Source: a virus
DNA: 64,000 nt
Strand: one strand, 5' to 3'
Virus record (IMG/VR): IMGVR_UViG_3300028327_000814
Shown: in pieces, positions 1-36,323 of the stretch
Position numbering within the stretch: the stretch's first letter is position 1
Layout: each line of letters starts with the position of its first letter
Position numbers and translations under genes: made by a program
Notes under the pieces: model-generated
The model's database searches: none
Seen by the model: only the letters and a program-made list of their open reading frames with translations
Told to the model about the DNA's origin: nothing

Positions 1-216
1 TCAGGTGAGGTTTGTTGGGTTCAGTTTAGGCGTGGTCTGGTAAGGCAGGCTTGTTAAGGTTCGGCTTGCTCAGGTGTGGCATGGTGTGTTTCGGTAAGGC
101 AGGCGAGGCAAGGTCAGTTTTGGAGGGGTGAGGTTTGGCGTGTTCGGGTGGGTACTGGCGCGGCGTGATTAGGCAGGCATGGTACGTTGTGTTTAGGCGA
201 GTTATGGTTTGTAAGG
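1..216 (+). repeat. Non-coding 5-nt-period array of G(G/T)Y-NN units punctuated by 4-nt GGCA units; candidate guide-RNA array, truncated at window start and split by the Mu-like insertion
   Basis: Parses as ggt-ga ggt-tt gtt-gg gtt-ca gtt-ta ggc-gt ...; the boundary motif T(A/T)AGGCAGGC recurs at ~41-50, 95-104 and 169-178; the register resumes at 36306. Confidence 0.85.
211..216 (+). repeat. Left copy of 6-bp target-site duplication GTAAGG
   Basis: Identical hexamer at 36300-36305; these copies bound an element with symmetric end repeats. Confidence 0.85.
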
Positions 217-223
217 TGAACAC

Positions 224-258
224 GCAAGCAAACAGAACTAAAAACGCAAGAGAATAGA
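224..258 (+). promoter_or_regulatory. Left-end putative transposase-binding sites
   Basis: GCAAGCAAACAGA (224-236) and GCAAGAGAATAGA (246-258), 22 bp apart. Confidence 0.75.
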
Positions 259-297
259 ACCATATAAATAATTGCACATAGAGCAATGTCTTTACAT

Positions 298-918
298 TTA
301 TCTATATTTTTCTTCGATTTTTGTTTTTCTTGATTGATATTCTATTGCAGCATCAAAAGGTTCACCGGCGATTTCGGCCTCTTCCTTCAAACGTCTCACT
401 TCCCGTTTTGCGGCGGCCAAGGCTGCTTCCTTTTCTTCGGTTTTTTGTTCTGGGGTAAGATTTGCTAATCGTGCCGCTTCGTTTTGTTCTGCAATTTCTC
501 TTTGCTGTGTCTGGGAAAGTTTATCAGGTAATATTGCATCTTGAGGTAATGATTCTCCAATTTGTTCAATTTTTTGTTTGTTCCAACTTCCGTCTTGTAT
601 TATCCAGTATTCCGTATCCCTCCAGTCGGCTATAATATCACCTGAAAATTGTAGTCTCTCATGAGGATCTAGATTGTCTAGTATACTTTTCAATCTTTTT
701 CCCTCGTCATCATCAACATTTTTTTTCCCCTGGCCAAGATGGGAAAATACTACATTTTCTGCCAAGAGTTCTTCGCGTGTTTTTTTGAGCAAAATATCAG
801 GGGTTTTTGCAATTATAGCCTCAACCTTGGCATTTGTTTCTTCAGGATCAGGTGATGCATTTTCAATACCAATAATAATTTGATAACTTTCAATTTCTAC
901 GAAAGTAATTGTTTTCAT
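298..918 (-). CDS. Probable tail-fibre assembly chaperone (Tfa-like)
   Basis: IADWRDTEYW...KIEQIGESLP resembles tail-fibre assembly proteins; lies at the tail end of the prophage. Confidence 0.55.
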   Translation of the reverse strand: MKTITFVEIESYQIIIGIENASPDPEETNAKVEAIIAKTPDILLKKTREELLAENVVFSHLGQGKKNVDDDEGKRLKSILDNLDPHERLQFSGDIIADWRDTEYWIIQDGSWNKQKIEQIGESLPQDAILPDKLSQTQQREIAEQNEAARLANLTPEQKTEEKEAALAAAKREVRRLKEEAEIAGEPFDAAIEYQSRKTKIEEKYR

Positions 919-1081
919 TAAAAAACCTCCATAATTGTTACCATGTTAAATCTTAATATGCTCCTAATCATAATAACCGTCATTATTGTAAATAATCCTT
1001 ATTTATGGAGCATTGCAGAAGTTTGCCCATGCCATGCTTTTTTTGCTTATGTTCTGCTATGGTCAACAGCAGGAGGCTTTT

Positions 1082-2056
1082 ATGCAGATAAAAAATTATG
1101 CGGATTTATTTTCGCAAGACGGTTTCTGGCGTGTCAAACGCGCAGAAAAGAAAAAATTTTACACGGACAAGTCGATGGACACAAGGGACGCTGTAATGCG
1201 AAACTGGGTGGTTCCGCTATGGGGAGAAATTAACCCCAAGCGGCTTACTGTCAAAATGATTGACCGAGCGATGATGGGCACCACGTCGAAGCTGACCAAG
1301 CGCACATTGGCGGGAGCGACACGGAACAGAATTTTGTCGGTGTTATCGGAAATGTATGTTCACTTAATCGAGGAAGGAAAATCGCGGATAAACCCTGTTA
1401 GGGACGTTGTGCGGTGTAATTCATACCCCGAACACCCCAGAGGCGTATTGCCGTTAAATGATTTGAAATTACTGTTTCCTGATAATCTTGCAGAATTAAA
1501 ACAAATATGGCGGACGCAAAAATACATCTGCGCGTTTTTGATACTCAGGGACACGGGTATACGCCCTGGGGAATTAGTCGCGCTCAGATGGGGTGATTGG
1601 GATTCAGATATTAAATTCTTTCCAATTTTAAAAGCGCTTGAATCGGGCAGCAAAAATAAAATTAAAGGGACAAAAACAGGTTCAACCAAGCCAGCGATTA
1701 TTACGGATCAGACCGCAGAGGAAATAGAGCGTCTGAAGAAAAAAGTAAAGCCCAAACCTGAAGATTATATTTTTGCCAACAAACACGGCATACCTTACGG
1801 CACCCACCGTCTGTCGTGGAATTTCCGCAAGTCTGTGGAACGCGCCGGAATTGACAAGCCGTATCTCACGCCCTACTGGCTGCGGCACACGTTTAATTCC
1901 ATTTTACTAGAAACTAACTCTACTAAGGTGGTACAGCTCTTAATGGGGCATAACACCGAAGCCATGACGCGCCATTACCGCCACGCGGGGGTTGAATCAT
2001 TGGCGCGAACCGCTGTAAAAATTAGAGATGAGGTTAACGCCTGTAGATTGTACTGA
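1082..2056 (+). CDS. Tyrosine recombinase, candidate shufflon invertase
   Basis: RDTGIRPGE, GTKT, YWLRH, LMGH and RHY catalytic motifs; AGGAGG before ATG 1082 (ORF track starts at TTG 1013); adjacent to the cassette array. Confidence 0.9.
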   Translation: MQIKNYADLFSQDGFWRVKRAEKKKFYTDKSMDTRDAVMRNWVVPLWGEINPKRLTVKMIDRAMMGTTSKLTKRTLAGATRNRILSVLSEMYVHLIEEGKSRINPVRDVVRCNSYPEHPRGVLPLNDLKLLFPDNLAELKQIWRTQKYICAFLILRDTGIRPGELVALRWGDWDSDIKFFPILKALESGSKNKIKGTKTGSTKPAIITDQTAEEIERLKKKVKPKPEDYIFANKHGIPYGTHRLSWNFRKSVERAGIDKPYLTPYWLRHTFNSILLETNSTKVVQLLMGHNTEAMTRHYRHAGVESLARTAVKIRDEVNACRLY

Positions 2057-2259
2057 CCCTTGAGGATTGGGAGGGGAAATTATTTAATAAACCGAATCTG
2101 GTATTATTGCATTACCGACAATACTTTGAAATGTAGTAGCAGGAGTCCACCACACAAAAGGCCTACTATTAGGTGGATGTCTTTAAAATTGACCACTAAT
2201 AAAAAATTTTCCAATTTCATAACGGCATTGTTTGCCTTCTTTTTTATGGGTGCATTCGT

Positions 2260-2448
2260 TCATTGTATATTTAACCCTTTTGAGAAATCTATTTTTTTCC
2301 AGTTTTCAGGGATTTTAGCCCCCTCTAAGCAACAATGCATTTGGCCGTTTTCGTCTATGTAATAATAATACCGAATACCTAACGGCGGACAAGCTTCAAA
2401 GCTGTCCACTATCGTCTTCAACATAATTTCCCCCTCATGCTTAAGCAT
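2260..2448 (-). CDS. Small hypothetical protein with its own promoter
   Basis: 62-aa ORF with a sigma70-like promoter immediately upstream. Confidence 0.45.
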   Translation of the reverse strand: MLKHEGEIMLKTIVDSFEACPPLGIRYYYYIDENGQMHCCLEGAKIPENWKKIDFSKGLNIQ

Positions 2449-2454
2449 ACTATT

Positions 2455-2483
2455 ATAGTAATTCCTCTATAATTTTTTGTCAA
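2455..2483 (-). promoter_or_regulatory. sigma70-type promoter
   Basis: TTGACA-17-TACTAT on the minus strand. Confidence 0.6.
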
Positions 2484-2492
2484 GCAATTTCT

Positions 2493-2757
2493 TTATGATG
2501 GAAATTCCATTGGAGCATACAATAGTGATAAAATACTGACACAAGTAGGATCGTTTGATGTACCAAGTTTTTGGAGCGGTCGTCTAGTGGTAAATCCAAC
2601 TGGAATTATACAAATATTAGGCACAAATACAAATTATGATAGCATCGTAAGCAACCCTTCTCAACAACAGTTACAGTACAAAATACAAGTGGGCTTTGGC
2701 TCCGGGTCGGAGACTAAACCAGTATCTACCTCCGTTTTAGTTTGTATTGCCTATTAA
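2493..2757 (+). other. Silent fibre C-terminal cassette D (87 aa, no start codon)
   Basis: Hand translation is open: YDGNSIGAYNSDKILTQVGS...GSETKPVSTSVLVCIAY-stop. Confidence 0.88.
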
Positions 2758-2761
2758 TTCT

Positions 2762-3017
2762 TTATGATGGAAACGCAATAGGAAGTATAATTGGGGACGC
2801 TATACGGAATATGGAAGGTTCTGTCGGATCGGGAATTGGGCTGTTTGCTAATATACAATCTGGGGTTTTTTCTTTAGACACCACAACAACAGATGTGTAT
2901 CAAGTCGGTACTGGAAACGGCTATAAAACATTAAAATTTAGAGCAAGTAACGTTGTGCCAACCGCTTACGAAAATCGTCCTGCCAGCATCAGTTTTTTGG
3001 TCTGTGTTACCTATTGA
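2762..3017 (+). other. Silent fibre C-terminal cassette C
   Basis: YDGNAIGSIIGDAIRN...YENRPASISFLVCVTY-stop. Confidence 0.88.
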
Positions 3018-3038
3018 TCATTCCGTCAGCGGAAAACT

Positions 3039-3261
3039 TTAATAGGTAATGCAAACTAGAGCGGATATTGACGCGGGGCGGTTTTCGTAGCTTCCGTTAA
3101 AATTTGATGTAGCGTATGTAACTGTATCAAAGCTGTAAACACCAAATTCATGCCCCCCTAAATTATAAGAGGCACTATTTTTATGTGCAAATCCATCTAA
3201 GGGATGCAAATGTGTTTTTAACGCGTCACTGATAAACGCCCCAATCGAATTTCCATCATAA
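3039..3261 (-). other. Silent fibre C-terminal cassette B
   Basis: YDGNSIGAFISDALKTHLH...YENRPASISALVCITY-stop. Confidence 0.88.
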
Positions 3262-3268
3262 GGAATTA

Positions 3269-4057
3269 TCAGTAAGTGATGCAAACAAGGACTGAAAAAG
3301 ACACAGGTTTTGTTTCCGAGTCGCCGTAATAACCTGTATAAGCTTCAGTGTTTGTTACACTCCCGTCAGTTCGCGGCCAATACCTTACATCTCCGAAAAG
3401 ATTATTTCCGACATCTGCAACGCCTATAGATTTGGTATGCAGGTGTGAGCGAACCGCGTCACTCTGATATGTCCCAATTGCGTTTCCATCATAAGGCGTG
3501 GATAATGGATTATTCATATTAGTACGGTAATATGAATTCTGTCCGGCTGCTCGAGGGAAAAGACCACTTATGTCCAAAAGTCTAAAATATAAACCTGTTA
3601 TACTTCTTGTACCGTCTATATTGCATCTATACCACCAAAGAGCATTATTGTTATTGTCATCACCTACATACATTAAATCAAACAAATCTTGATACAACTC
3701 TATTTTAAAAATTTCACCTTTAAGAGGTAAAAGATGCATCTTAATAAGCTGCTCTACAGATGGTTCATAAGCTAACATTACAAGTTCACCAACTCTTCGT
3801 GGTGCAAATCCTTTCTGCATAGCTTTTTTAAGTTGTTCCGGATCCGTATTGTTTGGATCTAACCCAATTTCACTGATTAGATTTTCCATGTTATCAATCA
3901 AGAGATTGAATGTTGCTGCAGGGATATGGGACGGTTTTTTCAGCGGGTCGGAAAAATCCCCGTCGGTAAATTTATGCGTTTCCGGGTCAAGACCGGGATA
4001 CATAACTTGTTCCCCGAAAATTTCAAGTAACTGATCATCTGGATACATTCCTGGCAT
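3269..4057 (-). CDS. Tail fibre (constant N-terminus plus currently expressed cassette A)
   Basis: Follows the gp48-like gene; Mu-type fibre N-terminus; collar-like LPLKG and GLFPRAAG; ends ETKPVSFSVLVCITY. Confidence 0.85.
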   Translation of the reverse strand: MPGMYPDDQLLEIFGEQVMYPGLDPETHKFTDGDFSDPLKKPSHIPAATFNLLIDNMENLISEIGLDPNNTDPEQLKKAMQKGFAPRRVGELVMLAYEPSVEQLIKMHLLPLKGEIFKIELYQDLFDLMYVGDDNNNNALWWYRCNIDGTRSITGLYFRLLDISGLFPRAAGQNSYYRTNMNNPLSTPYDGNAIGTYQSDAVRSHLHTKSIGVADVGNNLFGDVRYWPRTDGSVTNTEAYTGYYGDSETKPVSFSVLVCITY

Positions 4058-4068
4058 TTTAATTCCTC

Positions 4069-4764
4069 CTAAAGTTTATATAAAAAATAAGCAATATTGC
4101 TTGCTATTAATTTGTCGTTTACATCCCGCTCAAAATCATCAAGTATTTCTATTTCTGAAAAAATGCGACTTGAGTAGTCCTTAATAAAAAAAGAACGTCT
4201 AAAAAAATGACCTATACCAAAGCAGCCTTGGCCAAATGAAGAGTTTTTTATCAATTTAGTTATACAATTTTTTGCTTCAATTCTTAATTCTTCATTTTGA
4301 AACGCCGCTATAACATAAAACACCGAATAAAAAGCGGGACGTGAAAATATAGAACGGCCAAATTTGGAGAACCCAAAAAACGAAGGTTTAAACGGAAAAA
4401 TTATATCAATCAATGTCAGACCGTATTTTTGAGCAATATCCGCAATCAATATGCGGTTAATTAATGGAGTTTTTTTTGTCGCTAATATTTTCCGGCGTTC
4501 TTCGATAGGCAGGTGAATATTTGTATATCCCAAAAGGACACGTTCCCAATCGTCTATGCTTTCAACCGCGGTTTGATAATCACTCTCTGCAAGTAAATCA
4601 CTCATTCGTTTTCGCAAATTAATAATTTCTTTTGATTTTGCTTTACAAAATAAATTTAAGTCGGATTCAGGATCAGCAAATTGTTTTTTCCAATATTCAC
4701 CCTGGGGAAACAGATCGCGGATTGCTCCGCTGTAATCTTTTTCAGTAGCCACATTTATACCCAT
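4069..4764 (-). CDS. Baseplate wedge protein (Mu gp48-like, DUF2313)
   Basis: LFPQGEYW and ESIDDWERVLLG; position after the J-like gene. Confidence 0.75.
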   Translation of the reverse strand: MGINVATEKDYSGAIRDLFPQGEYWKKQFADPESDLNLFCKAKSKEIINLRKRMSDLLAESDYQTAVESIDDWERVLLGYTNIHLPIEERRKILATKKTPLINRILIADIAQKYGLTLIDIIFPFKPSFFGFSKFGRSIFSRPAFYSVFYVIAAFQNEELRIEAKNCITKLIKNSSFGQGCFGIGHFFRRSFFIKDYSSRIFSEIEILDDFERDVNDKLIASNIAYFLYKL

Positions 4765-5822
4765 GTTATAGTCCCCAGTACCGGATATTCCAATATTGTT
4801 GTCGATATAATACCGATGATATTCCCCGACAGTTTTATTACTGCGTCTGTTATTGTTACGCCATCAATGACGGCAGTTTTCAACATTCCGGAAGTTATCT
4901 GAATACCCGGCTTTGCGATTTGCTGGAGATATGCTTTTAAGCGCGTTTCCACCAGTTCAATGTTTTTCTGGGTATTCTCAAACGGCATCAATTTTATTTC
5001 AGGATTTAAGGGAATAAGCGAAGGCGTACGCACGTCAAAAATGACCGGAGGAGATACCGTGCTGATATAATTCCGTACTGCCGCAAGGTTTTTTACCTGA
5101 TGGACGCCGCTCATTTGATTGCCGTTTATCACCTGTATAAGCAATGCCCCAAACACCCCGAAATTTCTGAATTCCCATGCGGCGGAAACTTCCGGTGTCG
5201 CGTCCAGCGCCCATGCCTCAAAATCTTTATACTGACCATACCTGTTGGGATTACGCAAAGTAACAAGGACTCTGACAAGATATTCTTCATCGCTTTCAGC
5301 GTCTACCCCCCCAAGAATACCTTCGTCACCAACTTTGGCGTCTGAATCAATGCCAGCCGGAATTGAGGAGACAATACTTAACGGGCTGCCTGTTTCAAGA
5401 TTAGAATCTTTCCCCGCATTTTCCGCTTTTACATTGACAATCACTTTACCGTTACTCGAAATATTATAAGCTTTTTCAGTGAAGTATCTTTTACCTGAAG
5501 CGCTTTTAAAGACAATGCCGGCCGGCGCTGGTTTTCCTGCAATGCCGTTTACTTCGACATTTCCAATTGCCGCTACCGCATACAACGGCGGTACTATCAT
5601 GGACCAATGAGATCTCAAATATTCGCCTTCGGCGGTATCCGGAAACAGTTGTTTTGACAGAAAAACCAAATCACCTTGCAAAAGATGAGACAGGCCGGCA
5701 TCGACATTCGCCATCACTGAAACAAGGTTATAACGCGGCGTCCTGTCCATCGGTTTGAACAGGCTCAAATAATTGGCTGCCGTCCTTTCTTTCAGGACTT
5801 GTAAACTATCTCTGTTAAACAT
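4755..5822 (-). CDS. Baseplate J-like protein (Mu gp47)
   Basis: QLFPDTAEGEYL, GGVDAESDEEY and DFEAWAL motifs; start placed at ATG 5822. Confidence 0.88.
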   Translation of the reverse strand: MFNRDSLQVLKERTAANYLSLFKPMDRTPRYNLVSVMANVDAGLSHLLQGDLVFLSKQLFPDTAEGEYLRSHWSMIVPPLYAVAAIGNVEVNGIAGKPAPAGIVFKSASGKRYFTEKAYNISSNGKVIVNVKAENAGKDSNLETGSPLSIVSSIPAGIDSDAKVGDEGILGGVDAESDEEYLVRVLVTLRNPNRYGQYKDFEAWALDATPEVSAAWEFRNFGVFGALLIQVINGNQMSGVHQVKNLAAVRNYISTVSPPVIFDVRTPSLIPLNPEIKLMPFENTQKNIELVETRLKAYLQQIAKPGIQITSGMLKTAVIDGVTITDAVIKLSGNIIGIISTTILEYPVLGTITWV

Positions 5823-6156
5823 CTTTCCAAACATCCTTAATAAAAATACTGCCGCCGTCTGGCTGTATTGTTTCAACGGTGTATGAAATTACATTTTTGC
5901 CGGTACGTTCAACGGCACAATTTATTTGCCGGGCAAGTCCGTCAGTTACAATCCATGAAAGACATTCCTGCAGCATCCGTTTAAAATTCCCCGCTGTTTT
6001 TTCGTCAACTTTGCCGTTCTCCCTTAATAAGTAAAGTTCGCTTCCGAAATTTGGATCTGCCCACCACGAGCCTTTATCAGTGCCGATACTCATTTGCACA
6101 AGTTCGCGGATGTCTGTCCAGTTTTCGACAGCTACCGTTTTATTTGCCTGTTCCAT
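5815..6156 (-). CDS. Mu gp46-like baseplate protein
   Basis: GSWWAD...GSELYLL, LSWIVTDGLA. Confidence 0.8.
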   Translation of the reverse strand: MEQANKTVAVENWTDIRELVQMSIGTDKGSWWADPNFGSELYLLRENGKVDEKTAGNFKRMLQECLSWIVTDGLARQINCAVERTGKNVISYTVETIQPDGGSIFIKDVWKDV

Positions 6157-6709
6157 GCAACACCTTTTTATTTTCCAAGTTTGAAAAATCTTCTTTATTA
6201 ACCAATGCAGCTAACATTGCGGCAATTTGCGCTTTATATGTCGCGCCGCCGTCCTGTACGGCAGTCTGCGAATTTTTGAGCGCGTCTATAATCCCGTCAA
6301 CACGAGCCGACAATTTATTAAGCTGGCTTTCAAGCTCGGCGGCTTTGACTACGCCGCCGGCATCGGTTCCAAAAAGTTCCAGCGTCCCTTTTTCCCGCGC
6401 TATTATCCAACCGCCTTCTTGGGTATACAGCGCGGAATCGCCTTCTTCCAATTGCGGCGGGCATACTTCGTCATCAGCCGTTAGTGGCATAATTTCAAAG
6501 CCGCCGAAATCCCCTCCCTGACAAAAAACAAACGTCTTGCCTGTTTTAGCTTTGGCGGTAAAGCCATAGGGAAACGCTTCTTTTTTTTCTATGACCCTGC
6601 CGGAATGTGTTTTTACCTGCAGTCTGCCGTCATCATAACGTTTTTCAAATTTGGCTATTGAGAAAGTGTTACGAATTTTGGCTCTTATTTGACCAAACAA
6701 ATCATTCAC
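6140..6709 (-). CDS. Baseplate spike (Mu gp45-like)
   Basis: PYGFTA...LEEGDSALY; synteny. Confidence 0.75.
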   Translation of the reverse strand: MNDLFGQIRAKIRNTFSIAKFEKRYDDGRLQVKTHSGRVIEKKEAFPYGFTAKAKTGKTFVFCQGGDFGGFEIMPLTADDEVCPPQLEEGDSALYTQEGGWIIAREKGTLELFGTDAGGVVKAAELESQLNKLSARVDGIIDALKNSQTAVQDGGATYKAQIAAMLAALVNKEDFSNLENKKVLHGTGK

Positions 6710-7725
6710 AAATATGCCTCTTTTTTTACCAGCGTTATGTCACTGCTTATCGCATCGGCGTTCGCGGTCAATTCCACTTCGGATATTAACAGATTAGCCT
6801 TGAGACCAAGCGTTGGCATACTAACGGGAATTATTGATTTTGGAAACCAAAAAAGTTCCGGTTTATCTATTGATGCTCCCAATCTTTTTATCTGCTCATC
6901 GGTAAGTCCCCAACCGGGAACTGTAGCCGTAATTTTACTTTCTCTTCTGCGCTTCACTTCCATTTTTGCCCGCCGTTTAACAGCGTCTTCACCAATATGC
7001 GTATCGGACAAATCAATGGTAAGAATGCGGCCCTTCGGGCATGAAGTATCAATTTCTCGCGCTTCATAATCTTCGCCGATTACAACATATTCATAAAATT
7101 GCTCGGAACCGTTTTCCGTCCATTTAATATTTTTGACGTTTACGCCTTCAGTAATATGAAATCCTTCATGCCTGACGCCGCCGTCTATTTTCCAAAGATA
7201 AAGTTTTCCCGCTTGGTTACTGGTTAATATATACCCCTGATTGTCCGCTTCATTTATCAGTTTAGTCCATGGGCTTTCGTTATTCCACTCAAAGTCATAA
7301 ACCGGATCCGTTGGATCAGGTTTATCAGGCGGAAGGGTATCGCATTCAATACCAAATCTTTTCCCTATATAGTTTATTAATGTCCGAAGTTGCCTGTCGT
7401 CGCCGGTATCAGACCATGTTGAGTCTATTATATTCCGCGCCGGAGAGCGCCCTATAACCATGAGGCTGTTTTTCGTAACATCAGCGTTAGACGTAACTTC
7501 GTCAACAAGAACGGTCGTAATTAATCTGCTCCAGTTAGGATTCCTTATTATTGGATTATCAAAGGTGACCGTTATTCTATTATGTTTTCTGACTTTGGGC
7601 CGTTCAGACAGCGGTATTTCCAGCTCAAGCGTATGACATATTTCATCAAGTGACTTTCTAATTTTTATGGAACGCCATAACAGTTCATTGCCGGTATTTT
7701 CGTTTTTGACAATTATTTTAGACAT
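6706..7725 (-). CDS. Baseplate hub (Mu gp44/gpP-like)
   Basis: Size and synteny; VIGRSPARNIIDS, ESPWTKLINEA. Confidence 0.75.
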   Translation of the reverse strand: MSKIIVKNENTGNELLWRSIKIRKSLDEICHTLELEIPLSERPKVRKHNRITVTFDNPIIRNPNWSRLITTVLVDEVTSNADVTKNSLMVIGRSPARNIIDSTWSDTGDDRQLRTLINYIGKRFGIECDTLPPDKPDPTDPVYDFEWNNESPWTKLINEADNQGYILTSNQAGKLYLWKIDGGVRHEGFHITEGVNVKNIKWTENGSEQFYEYVVIGEDYEAREIDTSCPKGRILTIDLSDTHIGEDAVKRRAKMEVKRRRESKITATVPGWGLTDEQIKRLGASIDKPELFWFPKSIIPVSMPTLGLKANLLISEVELTANADAISSDITLVKKEAYL

Positions 7726-21726: not shown

Positions 21727-21729
21727 CCC

Positions 21730-25267: not shown

Positions 25268-25270
25268 GGA

Positions 25271-26269: not shown

Positions 26270-26286
26270 AAGGAGGATAATTTTTT

Positions 26287-26684: not shown

Positions 26685-26697
26685 GGTCCCTTTGCTG

Positions 26698-27009: not shown

Positions 27010-27176
27010 GTAACGCCTCCTATAAAAAATTAGCGGTCACGAGTCCGACCGCCAAGGACATCAAACCAATTAAAGGAGTAAAGTAGGCATTGTCAGAATA
27101 ACCTGACAACAGCCAAAAAATACAATAATTATAATTATTGTAAATCGCGGCCCGTAAATCGGTACGATTTTACAAT

Positions 27177-28560: not shown

Positions 28561-28626
28561 ATACAATAACCGCCATTAGGGGAAATATAACGGCGGCCTG
28601 TTTTAAATTATAAAGCGGAGGGATTT

Positions 28627-28950: not shown

Positions 28951-28953
28951 ACA

Positions 28954-29247: not shown

Positions 29248-29248
29248 A

Positions 29249-29800
29249 ATGGGCCAAAAAAGCTCCATTGACAAACTGCCGAAAAAACTCCGTGACAAGC
29301 TGATAGAGATGTTACAAAACCCAGCCGTAACACAGGCTGAAATTGTTGACGCGATAAACGCCGAGGCAGGCGAGCCGCTTATTTCAAAATCGTCAATGAA
29401 CCGCTACGCGCAAAAAATGAAACACTTCACGGAAAAGAACCGGCAGGCGAAAGAGATCGCCGACGCGTACATTGAGAAATACGGCAGCGAAAACCGGCAG
29501 AACCTCGGCAAAGTAATCAACCAGCAAATGCGCGTGGCGATATTCGACCTTATGGGCGAGTTTGAAGAAATCCTTGCCGACCCTGAAACAAAAAGCGTGG
29601 AAGCGGCGGACATACTCTACAAAATATCGCGCGGTCTTAAAGAGCTTGAGCAAGCGGAAAAACTGAACGCAGAGCGTACCCAGCACATACGCCAAGAAGC
29701 GTTAGCCGATGCCGCCGAGATTGTGGAGAAAGAAGCGAAATCAGCAGGGCTTGACGAATCCGCACTGGAGATTATCAAGCGTAAAATTTTGGGAATATAA
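29249..29800 (+). CDS. Terminase small subunit (Mu gp27, DUF3486)
   Basis: MGQKSSIDKLP, ISKSSMNRY. Confidence 0.85.
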   Translation: MGQKSSIDKLPKKLRDKLIEMLQNPAVTQAEIVDAINAEAGEPLISKSSMNRYAQKMKHFTEKNRQAKEIADAYIEKYGSENRQNLGKVINQQMRVAIFDLMGEFEEILADPETKSVEAADILYKISRGLKELEQAEKLNAERTQHIRQEALADAAEIVEKEAKSAGLDESALEIIKRKILGI

Positions 29801-29811
29801 GGAGAGACAAG

Positions 29812-30051
29812 ATGAATCCACAATTTATTAAGTATGGAACACCGTCAATAAAGCTTATTGAGGAATGTTCAGAGGTAATTCATGCTCTGTGCAAGGCTGA
29901 CCGCTTCGGGCTTGACGACCACCACCCTGAAAAAAACATCACAAATCGCGATTCCATAAATTCGGAAATTAACGACTTGCAAATAGCAATTAAAAATTTT
30001 CAAGAATGGGAAAAAAGCATTCCTGTCGGAAGTGACAGGAAAAGGAAATAA
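29812..30051 (+). CDS. MazG-like nucleotide pyrophosphohydrolase
   Basis: KLIEECSEVIHALCK ... EINDL acidic helices. Confidence 0.55.
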   Translation: MNPQFIKYGTPSIKLIEECSEVIHALCKADRFGLDDHHPEKNITNRDSINSEINDLQIAIKNFQEWEKSIPVGSDRKRK

Positions 30052-30057
30052 AACCCC

Positions 30058-30261
30058 ATGAATGAAAATTTACTACCATGCCCATTTTGCGGTGAAATTC
30101 CTATATTAAGTAAATATAAAAATCTAAAAAATAAATCGTTTTACTACACATATCATGTTTGTGGCGATGGTTCAATGATTTGGATAAAAACCGCATTTTT
30201 CAAAACAAAAAAAGAAGCCATTGCCGCATGGAATAAGAGGACTGATAAACCTCATGAATGA
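30058..30261 (+). CDS. Lar-like restriction alleviation protein
   Basis: LLPCPFCG ... EAIAAWNKR. Confidence 0.75.
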   Translation: MNENLLPCPFCGEIPILSKYKNLKNKSFYYTYHVCGDGSMIWIKTAFFKTKKEAIAAWNKRTDKPHE

Positions 30262-31723
30262 AGACGTACTCCTTCCTTACCAAAAAGCGTGGATAGAAGA
30301 CAAGTCCAGCGTCAAAGTCTGGGAGAAATCCCGGCGCATTGGAGCGTCTTATGTCGAAGCGTTGGACTCGGTACTGGAAGGCGCAAAGTCAAAAGAGGCG
30401 GGCGGTCAATCTACATATTACCTTTCCTATTCCAAAGAAATGACACAGCAATTTGCGAGGGACTGCGCGTTCTGGGCAAAACACATAAACGCCGCCGCTT
30501 CCGAACTTGAAGAAATCGTACTCAATGATGAGGACAAAGATATTACCGTCTACCGCATACGTTTCGCATCAGGCTTTGAAATATGGTGTCTGCCGTCTGT
30601 CGCTCGTTCGCTCCGTTCCAAACAGGGACGGGTTATCATTGACGAAGCGGCGTTTGTCGAAGATTTGGGTGCACTCTTAAAAGCGGCGATGGCGCTTCTT
30701 ATGTGGGGCGGTTGCGTCAGGATTTTATCAACGCATAACGGCGATGATAATCCGTTCAACGAACTTATCAAAGAGATAAAAGAAGGGAAAAAAGACTACA
30801 GCCTCCACCATACCACATTTGACGAAGCTCTGGCGCAGGGTTTATATAAACGAATTTGCCTTGTTCAAAAAAAAGAATGGTCGCCTGAAGCGCAGGAAGT
30901 TTGGCGGCAGAAAATTATTGACGAATACGGCGAAGACGCCGATGAAGAATTATTTTGTATTCCCGTCCGTGCCGGAACACGATACTTCCCATCGGCGTTG
31001 CTTGAGGCAGTTTCCGATCCTAGCGCAAAAGTTCTGCGTAAAACCTGCGATGACGGCTTCACTTTCGTAGAAAAAGAAAAGCGTGTCAAAGAATTTGACA
31101 CTTGGCTTAAAAACGAAGTCCGTGACACATTGCTGCTTCATACCAATCCAGTATATCTGGGCGAAGACTTTGCCCGTTCCGGCGACCTGACCGCCATATT
31201 CCTTGACGAGCTGATGCCTGACGGAAAACTGCTTACATTCCTTGTAATCGAATTGCGTAACGTGCCGTTTGACCAACAGTTGCAAGTCATTTTGTATCTT
31301 ATGAATACCGTGCCGAATTTCGGCGGCGGAGCGTTTGACTCACGAGGTAACGGTCAGATGATCGCCGAATACGCGGCGCAGGAATATCCGGGCTATGTGT
31401 ATCAGGTAATGATCACTATGGCATGGTACGGGCAAACATTCCCCAAACTGAAAGAACGAATGGAAGACGCTACCACTACCATTCCCGATGACGCTTCTAT
31501 CCGTGAGGATTTTCGGGTTGTCGGAATCAAAGCGGGCGTTCCCTGCGTGCTTGAGCGTTCCGGCGGTATCCGAGAACGGCGGCACGGCGACGGAGCGATT
31601 GCGAAACTTATGGCGGTCTACGCCGCTGACAATGACGAAGAAAAAGGCTACCAGCCTATGACATACGAATCGGTAGAAACACCTAACAGATATAAAACAG
31701 GAGGTAAAGACCCGTGGGACTGA
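30254..31723 (+). CDS. Terminase large subunit (Mu gp28-like)
   Basis: LLPYQKAW, EKSRRIGAS, IIDEAAF, GEDFARSGD, HGDGAIA. Confidence 0.93.
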   Translation: MNEDVLLPYQKAWIEDKSSVKVWEKSRRIGASYVEALDSVLEGAKSKEAGGQSTYYLSYSKEMTQQFARDCAFWAKHINAAASELEEIVLNDEDKDITVYRIRFASGFEIWCLPSVARSLRSKQGRVIIDEAAFVEDLGALLKAAMALLMWGGCVRILSTHNGDDNPFNELIKEIKEGKKDYSLHHTTFDEALAQGLYKRICLVQKKEWSPEAQEVWRQKIIDEYGEDADEELFCIPVRAGTRYFPSALLEAVSDPSAKVLRKTCDDGFTFVEKEKRVKEFDTWLKNEVRDTLLLHTNPVYLGEDFARSGDLTAIFLDELMPDGKLLTFLVIELRNVPFDQQLQVILYLMNTVPNFGGGAFDSRGNGQMIAEYAAQEYPGYVYQVMITMAWYGQTFPKLKERMEDATTTIPDDASIREDFRVVGIKAGVPCVLERSGGIRERRHGDGAIAKLMAVYAADNDEEKGYQPMTYESVETPNRYKTGGKDPWD

Positions 31724-33303
31724 TAGAGGATATAAAAAAACGGTTTAACAAAAAAGACGCTTCCAATTCAAGCGACAGCGATGAGCAGGCAAGCGCCGTT
31801 CAATATACAAACCGCCACCCTTGGGGTGATTTTTCGCTATTGAACAGTTTAACGCCGGAACGCCTTGCGACAATTCTCAACGATGTCAGGCGTGGCGAAT
31901 GCCCTGCCGAATATTTGGAACTGTCGCAGGATATTGAACTGCGTGATCTGCATTACCGCTCCGTGCTTTCCACACGCAAAGACGCTATTACAGGGCTTGA
32001 AATAAAAGTCATTCCGGCAGGCGAAGGTGAAAAAGAAAAGGAACTTGCCGAGGCTGTAGAACGTGACATCGTTAAAAACTCAAGCGCAAAACTTCGTTCA
32101 TTGCTACGAAATATGCTTGACGCTCTTGGCAAAGGTTTTTCCGTCAATGAAATTATCTGGGATACAGGAAGCGTTCCGTGGAAACCGAAAGCGTACAAAT
32201 TCCGGGACCCCCGCTGGTTTCAATACGACAGGGAAACCGGAGACAATCTTATGTTACGCGCTCCATACGGAAACGATCTTGAACAGCTCAAGCCTTTTCA
32301 ATTTGTCGTACACGAGCCGCACTTAATCAGCGGAAAACAAATCACCGCAGGGCTTGCGCTTCCGGCGTTATTTTATTGGATGCTCAAAACTTACAACGTA
32401 ACAAGCTGGGCGGCGTTCATTGACCGCTACGGCTATCCGATCCGCATCGGCAAATACGGCAAAAAATTCACCGAAGAGGATCGAGTTACGCTCAAAAGAG
32501 CGGTCGCCGCCATTGGTCAGGATTTCGGCGCTATCATTCCCGAAAGCGCACAGCTTGAAATTATCGAATCCAAAAGCACCGGCGAAAAGTCAAACGTATA
32601 TAACAACATGGCGGACTGGATCGACAAACAGATCAGCAAACTTGTACTCGGTCAGACTATGACCACAGACGAAGGCGCAAGCAGGGCGCAGAGCGAGACT
32701 CACGAAAAAGTTCGTGACGATATTGCCGACAGCGACATTCAGCAGATTGTCGATACGTTGAACGCCGCATTGACCGTTCCTTACATTAACCTTAACTTTG
32801 GCGAGCAGAGCGAATACCCAAAGATAGACCTTTTCAAACCCGATGAAAAAAACATAGAGCAGATAATTACGGCGGTTAAAGAATTGGGACCGCTAGGGTT
32901 AGAAGTCAAAGCTGATGAAGTCCGCTCGCTTATCGGTCTATCCAATCCCGATCCCAAAGATGAAGTAATCGGCGGCAGATCATCCTATCCGCAAGACCCC
33001 TCTACAAATCTTGACGATTTAAATTCGGCTCGGAAAATCGCGCTCAACTCCGCCGCAAATAATGAACCTGCCGACAGTGTTGACGAACTGGACGCTGAAA
33101 ACGAGAACGGTTATGTCGCAATCTCCGACGAGATCGCAAGCGTGATTGAAAAAGCGGCTGATGCCGCTGTCGATTTTGAGTCATTCCAAAAGGAACTGAC
33201 AAAACTGGTTACCGGCTGGGCGCCGGATAAAATCGCCGAATGTATCGCCGTGGCGACATTCAAAGCAAGAGCGCTTGGAAGCGCAGAGTTTGACGATGAA
33301 TAA
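31714..33303 (+). CDS. Portal protein (Mu gp29, DUF935)
   Basis: DLHYRSVLSTRK, WAAFIDRYGYP, ISKLVLGQTMTT. Confidence 0.93.
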   Translation: MGLIEDIKKRFNKKDASNSSDSDEQASAVQYTNRHPWGDFSLLNSLTPERLATILNDVRRGECPAEYLELSQDIELRDLHYRSVLSTRKDAITGLEIKVIPAGEGEKEKELAEAVERDIVKNSSAKLRSLLRNMLDALGKGFSVNEIIWDTGSVPWKPKAYKFRDPRWFQYDRETGDNLMLRAPYGNDLEQLKPFQFVVHEPHLISGKQITAGLALPALFYWMLKTYNVTSWAAFIDRYGYPIRIGKYGKKFTEEDRVTLKRAVAAIGQDFGAIIPESAQLEIIESKSTGEKSNVYNNMADWIDKQISKLVLGQTMTTDEGASRAQSETHEKVRDDIADSDIQQIVDTLNAALTVPYINLNFGEQSEYPKIDLFKPDEKNIEQIITAVKELGPLGLEVKADEVRSLIGLSNPDPKDEVIGGRSSYPQDPSTNLDDLNSARKIALNSAANNEPADSVDELDAENENGYVAISDEIASVIEKAADAAVDFESFQKELTKLVTGWAPDKIAECIAVATFKARALGSAEFDDE

Positions 33304-33622
33304 AATTACGCGGATGGTATTTGGTCAAAATATAAAATATTACCGCAAAAAAAAAGACTGGACGCAACTTCGCTTGGGTATGGAATTAGGATTATCCCAG
33401 CCTACTATAGCACAATACGAATTGGGGATATATAGAAAAATGACAAGTAAAAAAAGTTTACAGTTTGCAAACGCGCTCGATGTTGAAGTATGGCAGTTAT
33501 TCGATTCAAACAATAATTCTTCAGGCAACGAAGATTTAGGTTTAACCGCCTATAGCAGAGAAATTAAAAGAAAAAGGCGGCAAAAGGATCGGTGTACAAA
33601 ACGTCTTGGACGTTTTATATAA
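33296..33622 (+). CDS. XRE-family HTH protein
   Basis: NIKYYRKKKDWTQLRLGMELGLSQPTIAQYELG. Confidence 0.7.
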   Translation: MNKITRMVFGQNIKYYRKKKDWTQLRLGMELGLSQPTIAQYELGIYRKMTSKKSLQFANALDVEVWQLFDSNNNSSGNEDLGLTAYSREIKRKRRQKDRCTKRLGRFI

Positions 33623-33638
33623 AAGCAAGGAGTAAGTT

Positions 33639-33908
33639 ATGAAAACATCGTTGGAAGAATTAAACACGCATCTGTTTGAAACTATTGAATGGCTGACAGA
33701 CAGGGACATCAGAAATGAAGAACTTGATCAAGAAATCAGAAGGGCTGAAACGGTTTGTAAGGTTGCAAGCGCAATTATCAGCAATGCCCAAACGGTTTTA
33801 TCGGCTTATAGGACAGCCGATGAAGTGGCGAATAATTTGCCGGAATGGATCGAAGGCAAAAAAATAAAACAACAACAACTTACCGATAAAACAAAAGGAC
33901 AAAAATAA
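33639..33908 (+). CDS. Hypothetical protein preceding the HNH gene
   Basis: LEELNTHLFETIEWL; AAGGAG upstream. Confidence 0.65.
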   Translation: MKTSLEELNTHLFETIEWLTDRDIRNEELDQEIRRAETVCKVASAIISNAQTVLSAYRTADEVANNLPEWIEGKKIKQQQLTDKTKGQK

Positions 33909-34519
33909 TGCGCATGAACCGCTGGTACACGCCGGAAGAAATCCAGTTCGTTAAAAAGAACATCAAAGGACGCACTTACCTTAAATTGCTTGCGATGTTC
34001 AATAAGCGGTTTAAACTCAGTTTGTCTTTGAAACAATTTCAAACCCTGACGTATAAGCATGGATTACGTAACGGCATCGGTAAATTTAAACCTGGCCATA
34101 AACCTTTTAATAAAGGGATAGATACAAAACAATGGAAAAAAATCTGTAAGGTGCGAAAAGATTATATACCCATTGGGAGCGAAAGAACCTCTAAGAATCA
34201 ATGCAAAGAATATGTCGATGTTAAAATCGGAGAAGCAAAATGGAAAAGAAAGCATGTTTTAATTTGGGAAGAGGCAAACGGTAAAGTGCCTAAAGGCCAT
34301 GTTGTTATTTTTGCGGACGGAAATCAAAAAAACTTCGCTCTGGAAAACCTCTTATTGGTGTCAAGGAAGGAACTTGGAGTGATGAATAGTTCCGGACTTA
34401 TATTTAATAATGGAGAATTTACCAAAATTGGTAAAACAATCGCGAATGTTAAAATGACTATTGAAAAACAAAAGAGAAAAATTAAAAAGAAAGGGAAGAG
34501 GAAAAAAGAGGTGTGCTAA
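33908..34519 (+). CDS. HNH endonuclease (HNH_3-like)
   Basis: KHVLIWEEANGKVPKGHVVIFADGNQKNFALENL. Confidence 0.82.
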   Translation: MRMNRWYTPEEIQFVKKNIKGRTYLKLLAMFNKRFKLSLSLKQFQTLTYKHGLRNGIGKFKPGHKPFNKGIDTKQWKKICKVRKDYIPIGSERTSKNQCKEYVDVKIGEAKWKRKHVLIWEEANGKVPKGHVVIFADGNQKNFALENLLLVSRKELGVMNSSGLIFNNGEFTKIGKTIANVKMTIEKQKRKIKKKGKRKKEVC

Positions 34520-35982
34520 TGGCAGACATAATTCCAAAAGTCGCATTGGACTACATAAAAAATAAAAATCTCAAGGTTGGTTTTTCTTACAAAGACGTAT
34601 GGAACGAAGAACACGCCACCGCTTTCACAATCGCCAAAGCCATGCAGATTGACGTACTTTCCGATTTACATAACGCCGTAATTCAGGCTGTTGAAAAAGG
34701 GCAGTCTTTTGAGTCATTCAAAAAAAATATAAAACCAACGCTTCAACAAAAAGGCTGGTGGGGTCGCAAAAAAATGGAAGATCCGCTTACCGGAAAAACA
34801 GTTGACGCATTGCAAGGTAGCGATCGCAGATTGAAAACCATCTATAGCACCAATATGCGTTTCGCATATCAAGAAGCGCAATATAAACGAACAATGGAAA
34901 GCGATCTTCATCCGTATTTCAGATATTGCTTGGGTGTCAGCGATAAGCATCGCAAAGAACACGAAAACTGGAATGGTATAGTTCTTCCAAAAGATGATCC
35001 GTGGTGGGATTCCCATTTTCCGCCAAAAGGTTGGGGTTGCAAATGCTACACCAGAGCCGTAACGGAAAGCCAAAAGAAAAAATATGAAGCCGAAGGTATA
35101 CCGGTTCCGACTCGGGCAGACGGTACTGGCGGCGGAAATATTAAAATAAAAACCAAAGCGCCGCCGGAAGAGTACACAACCTTTTTCAACGAACGCAAAG
35201 GCACTGTTGAGAAAGTTCCTAAAGGTGTCGATCCTGCGTTTAATAGTAAGCCGGGGAGGGTTTCACGGCAGGAAGCGGCAAAACAAAAACTCGCAGATTC
35301 GGAACGCAATTACAAGGCGAGTGCGGCAGGGTTTACAGATGAAATACCAAGTCCACCTAAAGTTGATGCAAAGGCAAGACGCATTCCCGACAGTGAGGAC
35401 ATAAAGAAAAAATTCTCCGAAATCGGAATCAGTTATATTGACCTTCAAGGTTTACCGGATGAAGTAAAGAAAATGATTTTTGAAAAAACAAAAAATGTCG
35501 TTGAGCGCTTCCCATTGGCTCGGAAAGCAGTGCCCGGAATTGTAGCTGACTTTGAGATGCCAGACGCTGACTTTGCTAAAACTAACAAGAAAACAGGGGA
35601 AATCAGGTTGAATGGAAACTGGTTTGCAAACATCTCGCAGTTTAGAAAATATTTTAACTCCCTTGTCCAGAAAGGAGACTTTCCGGCAGGGACAGACTGT
35701 CTTGATAACGTGACGCACGAATTTGGTCACGCAATAGTTCGAAAGCTCGCAGAAAATGGTAAAGTTGATAAATTTTGCGCTGGACTCCAAGACTATGTTC
35801 TGGTAAAATTAAAGAAAGATATTGCCGATATTGGAACAGGGCTTTCTAAAAATGCCTTGGAATGTCCGGCAGAATTTGTTGCTGATGGTTTCAATGAATT
35901 TGTAAACGTGGTGTCGGCACGAAAAATGGCAAAAGAACTTGGCAGGGCTTTAATCTATCTTTTGGGAGCAAAAAAATGGTGA
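34519..35982 (+). CDS. MuF head morphogenesis protein with C-terminal HExxH domain
   Basis: RRLKTIYSTNM, FPPKGWGCKC; C-terminal VTHEFGH ... AEFVADGF. Confidence 0.85.
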   Translation: MADIIPKVALDYIKNKNLKVGFSYKDVWNEEHATAFTIAKAMQIDVLSDLHNAVIQAVEKGQSFESFKKNIKPTLQQKGWWGRKKMEDPLTGKTVDALQGSDRRLKTIYSTNMRFAYQEAQYKRTMESDLHPYFRYCLGVSDKHRKEHENWNGIVLPKDDPWWDSHFPPKGWGCKCYTRAVTESQKKKYEAEGIPVPTRADGTGGGNIKIKTKAPPEEYTTFFNERKGTVEKVPKGVDPAFNSKPGRVSRQEAAKQKLADSERNYKASAAGFTDEIPSPPKVDAKARRIPDSEDIKKKFSEIGISYIDLQGLPDEVKKMIFEKTKNVVERFPLARKAVPGIVADFEMPDADFAKTNKKTGEIRLNGNWFANISQFRKYFNSLVQKGDFPAGTDCLDNVTHEFGHAIVRKLAENGKVDKFCAGLQDYVLVKLKKDIADIGTGLSKNALECPAEFVADGFNEFVNVVSARKMAKELGRALIYLLGAKKW

Positions 35983-36161
35983 GAGTACAAAGTTGGTGGC
36001 ATTCTAAATATCTTGAACCCGGAACTATAAAGATAAAAGACGGCACGCCCGCCGATGAACGTCGTAAACTTGAAACCGCTATTGCAACATGGCAATCTCC
36101 GCCTGTAGAAAACCCAATGACAGCGCAAGATATTGCAAAACTTATGGGCGAAAAACTTTAA
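35976..36161 (+). CDS. Small protein overlapping the MuF stop (candidate immunity)
   Basis: 61 aa, last gene of the prophage. Confidence 0.45.
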   Translation: MVRVQSWWHSKYLEPGTIKIKDGTPADERRKLETAIATWQSPPVENPMTAQDIAKLMGEKL

Positions 36162-36257
36162 TTTTTTAATAAAGATTGACTGCTTTTTTATTACACTATA
36201 TGCAAAGTCTTTACATTCTCTATCCCTATAAATTCCGCTAAATTCCTCAAATTCCCG

Positions 36258-36291
36258 TCTATTCTCTTGCATTTATAAATCTATTCTCTGC
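36258..36291 (-). promoter_or_regulatory. Right-end putative transposase-binding sites
   Basis: Reverse complements GCAAGAGAATAGA (36258-36270) and GCAGAGAATAGA (36280-36291). Confidence 0.75.
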
Positions 36292-36299
36292 TGTGATGA

Positions 36300-36323
36300 G
36301 TAAGGCAAGGTTTGGCGGGGCAA
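36300..36323 (+). repeat. Right TSD copy plus distal remnant of the GGY-NN array
   Basis: GTAAGG-c aa ggt tt ggc gg ggc aa. Confidence 0.8.

What the first reader, a model, noticed from the sequence alone, without database searches (positions are those of the whole stretch)
211..36305. Phage inside a phage: the Mu-like prophage inserted precisely into the other phage's guide-like array
Seen: GTAAGG flanks both ends; GCAAGAGAATAGA lies inverted exactly 29 bp inside each end (246-258; 36258-36270); the GGY-NN register continues across the empty site. The insertion cuts the portal-matching unit in two and separates the array from the downstream conserved gene, while leaving every siphovirus structural gene intact. 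Inference: either chance or selection, because inactivating an anti-phage or self-repressing guide could favour one or both phages. A 36-kb insert would also overfill the siphovirus head unless the Mu-like element is lost.
Basis: partly seen in the sequence, partly recalled or inferred. Interest (0 to 1): 0.82.

Follow-up and report, generated by a model that had tools for sequence, protein, structure and literature searches.

The report
Mu-like prophage splits a VIPR guide
A jumping (Mu-like) prophage of a termite-gut Treponema has landed inside another prophage, in the middle of that phage's VIPR guide-RNA array, and splits the one guide that spells the start of the phage's own portal gene; both kinds of element are already known and the hit is most likely an accident.

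Summary
Window 217-36299 is one complete Mu-like transposable prophage. It has imperfect inverted ends, GCAAGAGAATAGA 29 bp inside each end, and a 6-bp target duplication GTAAGG. Both junctions recur in independent termite-gut assemblies, so this is not a chimera.

The flanks are one locus of a siphovirus prophage: TerL, a 219-aa gene, a GGY-NN pentamer array, a 167-aa gene, then portal. The array belongs to a VIPR system, described in 2026 preprints. The 219-aa protein folds as a Cas7-type RAMP. In 77 of 80 related viral loci the 167-aa homologue lies at most about 1.3 kb from vipr. Only here do 36 kb intervene.

My constant-phase reading put the 'portal match' at chance (16/24). Allowing the 4-nt phase step at the insertion site, the split guide matches the first 11 codons of the phage's own portal at 18/20, with wobble bases skipped (0 of 3000 shuffles). 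It matches relatives' portals equally well.

No guide targets the Mu-like family, and relatives of the Mu-like phage sit at unrelated sites, so chance insertion is the best reading. No empty-site allele was found.

This scan has already noted VIPR systems in at least 36 other genomes. None had an insertion.

The parts
1..216 (+). 5' part of the VIPR vrRNA array (GGY-NN pentamers). The array starts 33 nt before the window, right after the stop codon of the vipr gene. It has four units of 12, 10, 14 and about 11 pentamers, separated by 4-nt GGCA steps.
   Evidence: Same architecture in L003-L005, Gordonia phages ODay and Pipp and cyanophage Cy-LDV1.
176..210 (+). 5' half of the split guide: seven pentamers with NN = AT AC GT TA GA AT TT, which correspond to portal codons 1-7.
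211..216 (.). Left copy of the 6-bp target duplication GTAAGG (the 4-nt phase step GTAA plus the GG of the next pentamer).
217..36299 (.). Mu-like transposable prophage, 36,083 bp, with two divergent arms.
   Evidence: Pfam and PHROG hits. Ends compared with relatives.
217..260 (+). Left end, 5'-TGAACAC..., with two transposase-site-like repeats (224-238 and 246-260).
   Evidence: Homologous ends in relatives.
298..17001 (-). Mu-like tail and head arm. It holds a tail-fibre region with a tyrosine recombinase (1013-2056, + strand), baseplate genes, tape measure 8983-11058, sheath 11931-13388, major head gpT 15101-16018 and protease/scaffold I 16015-17001.
19168..21726 (-). MuB-like AAA ATPase (19168-20025) and Mu-type transposase (20035-21726; phrog_310, E 7e-70).
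24569..25267 (+). HTH repressor-like gene, divergent from the transposase operon.
29249..35982 (+). Mu-like packaging arm: TerS 29249-29800, TerL 30221-31723, Portal_Mu 31714-33303, HNH 33908-34519, MuF 34513-35982.
36258..36299 (+). Right end with two site repeats. It ends ...GTGATGA, where all relatives seen end ...TTCA.
36300..36305 (.). Right copy of the target duplication GTAAGG.
36304..36336 (+). 3' part of the split guide (GGCAA GGTTT GGCGG, NN = AA TT GG, portal codons 9-11), followed by the conserved array tail GGCAATCTATTTTAATTC.
36351..36854 (+). 167-aa gene (phrog_15946), the candidate vap accessory gene of the VIPR locus.
   Evidence: A homologue lies next to vipr in 77 of 80 loci. 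The fold is uninformative.
36902..36934 (+). Predicted target of the split guide: the first 11 codons of the siphovirus portal gene, with the skipped bases on the wobble positions.
36903..60456 (+). Siphovirus structural genes: SPP1-type portal 36903-38348, minor capsid 2 with DUF3626 38579-40657, scaffold, tape measure 50413-53208, and tail tip genes up to 60456.

Best explanation
A temperate siphovirus of a termite-gut Treponema carries a VIPR locus in the variable slot between its large terminase and portal genes. The locus is vipr (a 219-aa Cas7-like RAMP, just upstream of the window), a staggered array of four GGY-NN guide units, and a 167-aa accessory gene.

By the published mechanism, Vipr protomers coat each guide RNA, one per pentamer. 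The NN dinucleotides pair with DNA while every third target base is skipped, and transcription is silenced. The last guide spells the first 11 codons of SPP1-type portal genes of this phage group, the phage's own included. It was therefore most likely a weapon against related superinfecting phages.

A Mu-like transposable phage later inserted by transposition into that guide and duplicated 6 bp. This split the guide. It also put 36 kb, 24 kb of it antisense, between vipr/array/TerL and vap/portal/all structural genes. The composite is too large for one siphovirus head. The siphovirus is therefore probably grounded, while units 1-3 of the array and vipr stay intact.

The choice of site is most likely accidental. 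Insertions into dispensable prophage DNA are simply the ones that survive.

Shown here: the insertion, the locus identity, the guide-portal match. Inferred: guide activity, the loss of siphovirus viability, and chance rather than selection.
For: Element and ends.

Junctions in independent assemblies:
- Right junction in ENA ERZ27257311 and ERZ27257309.
- Left junction in ENA ERZ27257309, Logan SRR5247073 and SRR5247076, and JGI 3300002308.

VIPR identity:
- The published description is bioRxiv 10.64898/2026.04.26.720920.
- 72 of 80 vipr loci have a pentamer array directly downstream, and 77 of 80 have the vap homologue.

Skip rule in this clade: 20 hits at 18/20 or better with a 1-nt skip, against 0 and 4 for the 0-nt and 2-nt controls. 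A guide of L005 matches vipr of this very strain at 22/26, in wobble phase.

Portal match: 18/20, unique in the window, 0 of 3000 shuffles. It is equally good on the portal genes of L123-L125.

Chance reading:
- Guides of 80 arrays against 336 kb of the Mu-like family gave 1 hit, against 0 and 3 in the controls.
- The window's own units score at chance level on the Mu-like element.
- Relatives of the Mu-like phage have unrelated flanks.

Host: termite-gut metagenome runs and Treponema MAG relatives.
Against: - No RNA or binding data exist, so guide processing and activity are assumed from the preprints on other VIPR types.
- The portal match depends on treating the 4-nt step as one unit. About 20 parses and guides were tried, so the corrected p is roughly below 0.01, not vanishing.
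- No perfectly matched target exists in IMG/VR or the JGI metagenomes.
- The preprint found no self-targeting guides, so a 90% self-match is unusual and could mean something other than kin exclusion.
- No empty-site allele of the same strain was found, so the pre-insertion sequence is inferred.
- One event cannot separate chance from selection.
Confidence: 0.75

Rival explanations
1. The insertion was selected. Destroying the guide that matches the siphovirus's own portal start (or uncoupling vap) relieved self-silencing or removed a kin-exclusion weapon. Alternatively, grounding the siphovirus benefited the host and the Mu-like phage, so this particular insertion rose to fixation.
For: - The split guide is the only one of four units with an identifiable target, and that target lies in the same phage 600 bp downstream.
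- The preprint reports no self-targeting above 80% in its own sets, so this guide is atypical.
- Every assembly holding these sequences carries the insertion, and no empty site was seen.
Against: - The insertion also cuts the siphovirus late operon, so it cannot rescue that phage.
- The own portal and the relatives' portals match equally well (18/20 each), as expected for a kin-directed guide with an incidental self-match.
- This is 1 of 81 loci.
- The Mu-like phage's genes are not targeted.
Confidence: 0.12
2. VIPR arrays are a preferred target for this Mu-like family, for example because of DNA structure or transcription of the G-rich 5-bp-periodic tract.
For: The insertion lies exactly on a phase step of the array.
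Against: At least six other right-end flanks of related elements are unrelated to pentamer arrays. These are L014, L015, L016, L029 and the loose ends in runs X1-X3. None of 80 other vipr loci is interrupted.
Confidence: 0.04
3. Assembly artefact: the Mu-like element and the siphovirus are joined only in silico.
For: Metagenome-derived sequence, repeats at element ends, and relatives of the Mu-like phage present in the same samples.
Against: - Both junctions are identical in contigs from three assembly pipelines and at least two studies.
- A clean 6-bp duplication is present, and the two flanks together rebuild a locus that is contiguous in relatives.
Confidence: 0.02
4. The pentamer tract is not a guide array but another signal, such as a packaging site or a protein-binding DNA tract next to the terminase genes.
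For: It lies between TerL and portal in this phage. There are no expression data here.
Against: - The same vipr-array-vap module sits in quite different genome positions in Gordonia phages, a cyanophage and 80 viral contigs.
- It is always beside a RAMP gene.
- Decoded guides hit coding sequences in wobble phase, and only under the 1-nt skip rule.
Confidence: 0.03

Closest known systems
VIPR systems (Vipr RAMP + vrRNA + vap). bioRxiv 10.64898/2026.04.26.720920, .720927 and 10.64898/2026.10.15.759431. Closest to the 'staggered arrays with overlapping vrRNAs' of fig. S18.
   Same: - A phage-borne lone Cas7-like RAMP of about 24 kDa.
- An adjacent tract of GGY-NN pentamers in units of 10-14.
- A small accessory gene.
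- Guides that read coding DNA with every third (wobble) base skipped.
- Guides aimed at related phages and at other vipr genes.
   Different: - There is no separate structured tail between units. Units abut at 4-nt GGCA steps.
- Many GTT pentamers stand in place of GGY; only 57% of pentamers are canonical.
- One guide matches its own phage at 90%, whereas the preprint found no self-targets at or above 80%.
- The array is interrupted by a 36-kb prophage.
- The type (I-VII) could not be assigned, because the type tables were not readable.
Mu-like transposable phages (Mu, and the BcepMu-type with an inverted early arm)
   Same: DDE transposase plus AAA ATPase, Mu-type portal, F, I and T head genes, a contractile tail, inverted ends with repeated sites, a short target duplication, and insertion at unrelated sites in relatives.
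   Different: - The duplication is 6 bp, not 5.
- The right terminus is GA, where relatives have CA.
- The packaging genes (TerS to MuF) lie on a separate arm that runs outwards to the right end. More distant relatives have that block in the other orientation.
Nested prophages, and Mu-like insertions into genes (ordinary insertion mutations)
   Same: A transposable prophage inside dispensable DNA, flanked by a target duplication.
   Different: The target here is a guide RNA of another phage's RNA-guided silencing system. Neither the three VIPR preprints nor this scan's notes report such a case.
Self-targeting CRISPR spacers associated with damaged CRISPR loci
   Same: A guide that matches the carrier's own genome lies in a locus that has been disrupted.
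   Different: This is an analogy only. Here silencing, not cleavage, is expected, and the disruption is a phage insertion.

Membership tests
VIPR system | Stand-alone RAMP (Cas7-like) Vipr protein outside a CRISPR-Cas locus | tested here: met
VIPR system | Glycine-rich loop and thumb of RAMPs | tested here: inconclusive
   A conserved C-terminal G-rich motif is present (invariant G192, G198, G206, G209; nearly invariant G196, G205). The thumb was not examined residue by residue.
VIPR system | Tandem YNNGG / GGY-NN pentamers, 9-16 per vrRNA, next to vipr | tested here: met
   Units of 12, 10, 14 and about 11 pentamers begin 5 nt after the vipr stop codon. The periodicity z-score is about 6. 72 of 80 homologous loci have an array.
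VIPR system | Constant GGY, hypervariable NN among relatives | tested here: met
   Arrays of L003-L005, ODay, Pipp and Cy-LDV1 share the period, the 5' CTTGGCAGGC and (in L003-L005) the 3' tail, but not the NN strings.
VIPR system | Targets recognised with a 1-nt skip, with skipped bases on codon wobble positions | tested here: met
   Enrichment is seen only at skip 1 (20 hits, against 0 and 4). L005 guide 1 on vipr scores 22/26 in wobble phase. The window guide on the portal start scores 18/20 in wobble phase.
VIPR system | Accessory vap gene | tested here: inconclusive
   The 167-aa gene is a conserved neighbour in 77 of 80 loci, and also in a mycobacteriophage that has no array between the two genes. 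Its model is poor (pLDDT 67) and has no fold match. Identity with vap1-6 could not be checked.
VIPR system | vrRNAs expressed, bound by Vipr, and able to silence targets | not testable with these tools
   No RNA runs were available. The holding runs are kept only as DNA contigs.
Mu-like transposable phage | Mu-type DDE transposase and MuB-like ATPase | tested here: met
   phrog_310 at E 7e-70, with weak rve hits. AAA_22 at E 3e-16.
Mu-like transposable phage | Mu-type head module (portal, F, I, T) | tested here: met
   Portal_Mu 1e-95, Mu_F 3e-17, Mu-like_Pro 4e-52, gpT 1.5e-107.
Mu-like transposable phage | Inverted ends with repeated transposase sites and a short target duplication | tested here: met
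   The duplication is 6 bp (GTAAGG), not Mu's 5 bp. End positions were fixed by homology with relatives.
Mu-like transposable phage | 5'-TG ... CA-3' termini | tested here: not met
   The left end is TGAA.... The right end is ...ATGA, whereas L014-L016, L029 and eight contigs in runs X1-X3 end ...TTCA. The terminal A is kept.
Mu-like transposable phage | Little target specificity (different flanks in different copies) | tested here: met
   Relatives have unrelated flanks.
CRISPR array | Direct repeats of 25-40 nt separated by unique spacers, with cas genes | tested here: not met
   The tract has a 5-nt period only. Rfam gave no hit to the arrays of three relatives. No cas operon is present.

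The most novel reading that the evidence does not exclude
The insertion is not an accident. A transposable phage (or selection acting on its lysogen) disarmed a rival prophage's RNA-guided silencing system by splitting the one guide that also matches that prophage's own portal gene. That would make insertional knock-out of VIPR guides a natural counter-measure, or a cure for VIPR 'autoimmunity'.
Probability: 0.1. Interest if true: 0.75.

Novelty: new member of a known kind. Interest (0 to 1): 0.45.

Why it matters
VIPR systems were described only in 2026, and their natural history is almost unknown. This locus gives:

- a staggered-array VIPR in spirochaete phages of the termite gut;
- a guide whose decoded target is the start of portal genes of its own phage group, with a 90% self-match, which the preprint did not see in its sets;
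- a natural interruption of such a guide by another phage.

It is a ready-made test case. Rebuilding the guide and testing it on the portal start would show whether 4-nt steps are tolerated inside a guide, and whether two mismatches protect the phage's own gene.

The insertion itself is an ordinary transposition event, and the evidence gives no reason to think it was selected.

Tried and rejected
- A constant-phase parse of unit 4 against the window gave 16/24 on the portal, equal to shuffled controls. I first took this as refuting the portal match, then corrected it with the phase-aware parse.
- Units 1-3 found no target above chance in the window plus 9.7 kb upstream, or in 782 kb of related loci.
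- Exact-pattern scans for unit 4 (12, 11 and 7+3 units) and unit 3 found nothing in IMG/VR. In JGI metagenomes the 11-unit pattern found nothing, and the 7+3 pattern gave one hit. That hit lies inside a bacterial ORF out of wobble phase, about what chance predicts.
- The Mu-like left end as an exact pattern found nothing in IMG/VR.
- megablast of 1-24500 against cultured phages found nothing.
- A genome-contig scan with the 167-aa protein found nothing.
- Rfam gave no hit to the arrays of L003-L005.
- Pfam, NCBIfam and PADLOC gave nothing for either VIPR protein.
- The vap fold was poor and gave no match.
- The empty-site search failed. All contigs with the exact vipr, vap or Mu-end proteins carry the insertion. 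Laid contigs showed no listed loose end at 36300, but most rows were not shown and contigs drop rare variants.
- No whole genome is held for this window.


Full report
**The element.** Window 217-36299 carries a full set of Mu-like genes. One strand holds the major head protein gpT, protease/scaffold I, sheath, tape measure and baseplate genes. It also holds a MuB-like AAA ATPase and a 563-aa transposase (phrog_310, E 7e-70). The other strand holds an HTH repressor-like gene, TerS, TerL, Portal_Mu, an HNH gene and MuF.

The ends are imperfect inverted repeats. Each contains two related sites, and GCAAGAGAATAGA lies exactly 29 bp inside each end. GTAAGG flanks both ends.

Comparison with 27 related viral contigs fixes the right end at 36299. 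Homology runs to the same distance beyond the last site in every relative and is followed there by unrelated DNA. Relatives end in ...TTCA, and so does the window's left end when read inwards. The window's right end is ...ATGA.

**The junctions are not an assembly artefact.**
- The right junction is identical in two ENA assemblies.
- The left junction is identical in an ENA contig of 51 kb, two Logan assemblies and a JGI contig.
- Runs that hold the sequence are termite-gut metagenomes from two studies.
- Contigs laid on the right junction show several related Mu-like elements. Their right ends continue into other flanks at 36292, so the family is present at several sites in these communities.
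- The nearest genomic relatives of the Mu-like head gene and one named siphovirus portal relative are in Treponema MAGs.

**The flanks.** The 51-kb contig gives what lies before window position 1: TerS, TerL (Terminase_3) and a 219-aa ORF. The G/T-rich tract starts 5 nt after that ORF's stop codon. After the element come the last 20-odd bases of the tract, a 167-aa ORF, an SPP1-type portal and a complete siphovirus structural module.

Three related viral contigs have the same order without any insert. The 219-aa ORF is followed by a 225-400 bp tract of GGY-NN pentamers that opens with CTTGGCAGGC. The tract ends in GGCAATCTATTTTA and a ribosome-binding site, and the 167-aa ORF follows. The same three-part module occurs in Gordonia phages ODay and Pipp and in cyanophage Cy-LDV1, at quite different genome positions.

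**What the tract is.** A literature search found three 2026 preprints on VIPR systems. They describe:
- a small phage-borne RAMP protein (Vipr);
- guide RNAs made of 9-16 YNNGG repeats, whose NN dinucleotides pair with DNA while one target base in three is skipped;
- an accessory gene (vap);
- several array architectures, including staggered arrays in which neighbouring guides overlap by 1 nt.

I tested the defining features here.
- Of 80 viral loci with a homologue, 72 have a pentamer array directly downstream.
- 77 of the 80 have a homologue of the 167-aa gene, starting at most about 1.3 kb beyond vipr.
- Guides taken from those 80 arrays hit those loci 20 times at 18/20 or better under a 1-nt skip. 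The 0-nt and 2-nt controls gave 0 and 4 hits.
- The hits fall mostly in vipr genes of other loci. The first guide of L005 matches vipr of the window's own strain at 22/26, with the skipped bases on wobble positions. Its own vipr scores 19/26.

The locus is therefore a VIPR system of the staggered kind. The window is the one locus of 81 in which vipr and array are separated from vap.

**The split guide.** The rebuilt array has four units of 12, 10, 14 and about 11 pentamers, separated by GGCA steps. Read in constant phase, the last unit matches the portal start at only 16/24, no better than shuffles.

The GG phase, however, shifts by one base at GTAA (211-214), within the left flank. I took seven pentamers (176-210), counted the 4-nt step as one unread unit, and added the three canonical pentamers on the right flank (36304-36318). 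The NN string is then AT AC GT TA GA AT TT .. AA TT GG. It matches 36902-36934 at 18 of 20 positions. Those are the first 11 codons of the portal gene (MTIYEVLAKFG), and every skipped base falls on a wobble position.

The match stands up to controls.
- The next best score among 147,000 positions is 15.
- None of 3000 shuffles reaches 18.
- When all offsets and all step positions are allowed, codon-shuffled targets never reach it.
- About 20 parses and guides were tried in all, so the corrected p remains below about 0.01.

The same guide scores 18/20 on the portal starts of three relatives that have other genes, not VIPR, in the TerL-portal slot (MTVYEILTKFAE). The arrays of four close relatives contain no such guide. 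No perfect target was found in IMG/VR or the JGI metagenomes.

The simplest reading is a guide against portal genes of kin phages, with a near-match to the phage's own gene. By the preprint's 80% criterion it counts as a self-target, which the authors did not find in their sets.

**Consequences (inferred).**
- The duplication leaves the seven 5' units on the left and the three 3' units plus the tail on the right, so the guide cannot be made as one RNA.
- vap, portal and all structural genes now lie 36 kb from TerL and from whatever promoter served them. The first 24 kb of the insert would be read antisense.
- No intrinsic terminator is predicted between MuF and vap on the + strand, so read-through from the Mu-like late arm is possible.
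- Relatives' contigs of this siphovirus group are about 39-40 kb, so a composite with 36 kb more cannot fit one head.
- Mu-type prophages do not excise precisely as part of their cycle (general knowledge of Mu). The siphovirus is therefore probably permanently grounded, while vipr and units 1-3 are untouched.

**Chance or selection.** Four tests lean to chance.
- Nothing in this array matches the Mu-like element above chance.
- Guides from 80 related arrays show no enrichment on 336 kb of the Mu-like family (1 hit, against 0 and 3 in controls).
- Related Mu-like elements sit in unrelated DNA.
- No other vipr locus of 80 is interrupted.

A selective reading cannot be excluded from one event. 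The split guide is the only one with a recognisable target, and that target lies in the same phage.

**Limits.**
- There are no RNA data.
- No empty-site allele of the same strain was found.
- The VIPR type could not be assigned, because the preprint's tables were not available.
- The function of the 167-aa protein rests on conserved neighbourhood alone.

**Earlier notes.** This scan's notes record VIPR systems in at least 36 other genomes. None has an insertion in the array.

Noticed in passing
window 36280-36299, compared with L014:6869-6888, L015:11701-11720, L016:11593-11612, L029:5226-5245: The Mu-like right terminus reads ...GCTGTGATGA. All relatives (4 loci and 8 contigs in three runs) read ...GCT(W)(W)ATTCA. 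The window's left end read inwards is ...GTGTTCA. The right end thus lacks the canonical CA (it has GA), and the element may be impaired for further transposition.
   Followed up: partly
window 217-36299, compared with L018, L019, L021, L023, L024, L031, L033: The packaging block (lysis genes, TerS, TerL, portal, MuF) lies between one genome end and the repressor. It points outwards in the window and in L015. In more distant relatives it points inwards (MuF next to the repressor, the end next to the TerS side). This is an in-place inversion of an 8-9 kb late-gene block within a Mu-like family.
   Followed up: partly
L013:3063-3332 (Gordonia phage Pipp, gene 43): The annotated 'hypothetical protein' gene 43 is the pentamer guide array itself, not a coding sequence. 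ODay genes 19/20 and Cy-LDV1 g34/g33 flank unannotated arrays of the same kind.
   Followed up: partly
L012:2300-3516 (Mycobacterium phage Donkeykong, genes 49 and 50): The vipr and vap homologues are adjacent with only 14 bp between them, and no pentamer array was seen in the stretch read (to about 120 nt beyond gene 50). About 27 mycobacteriophage records matched the vipr query. Their guides may lie elsewhere or be absent.
   Followed up: no
L005:10389-10640: An RT-2 RNA (Rfam RF03077, 98 bits) lies about 4.4 kb downstream of the VIPR locus in a related termite-gut phage contig.
   Followed up: no
L076:3173-3230, against L041, L044, L050, L085, L086, L097 and L100 near 3095-3160 (minus strand): The first guide of L076's very long array (about 1.1 kb) matches the conserved C-terminal G-rich region of vipr genes in seven other loci at 18-19 of 20 positions. 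This looks like an anti-VIPR guide of the kind mentioned in the preprints.
   Followed up: partly
L123:3131-3931, L124:3257-3961, window 1-36854: The slot between TerL and portal in this siphovirus group is variable. It holds an HNH gene in L123, a DNA methyltransferase in L124 and the VIPR locus in the window's phage.
   Followed up: no
window 1-216: Only 57% of the pentamers of this array have canonical GGY, and 12 of 47 have GTT instead. The figures for L004 and L005 are 84-85%. This could reflect relaxed selection after the phage was grounded, or a tolerated variant. L003 parsed at 50%, perhaps through parsing errors.
   Followed up: partly
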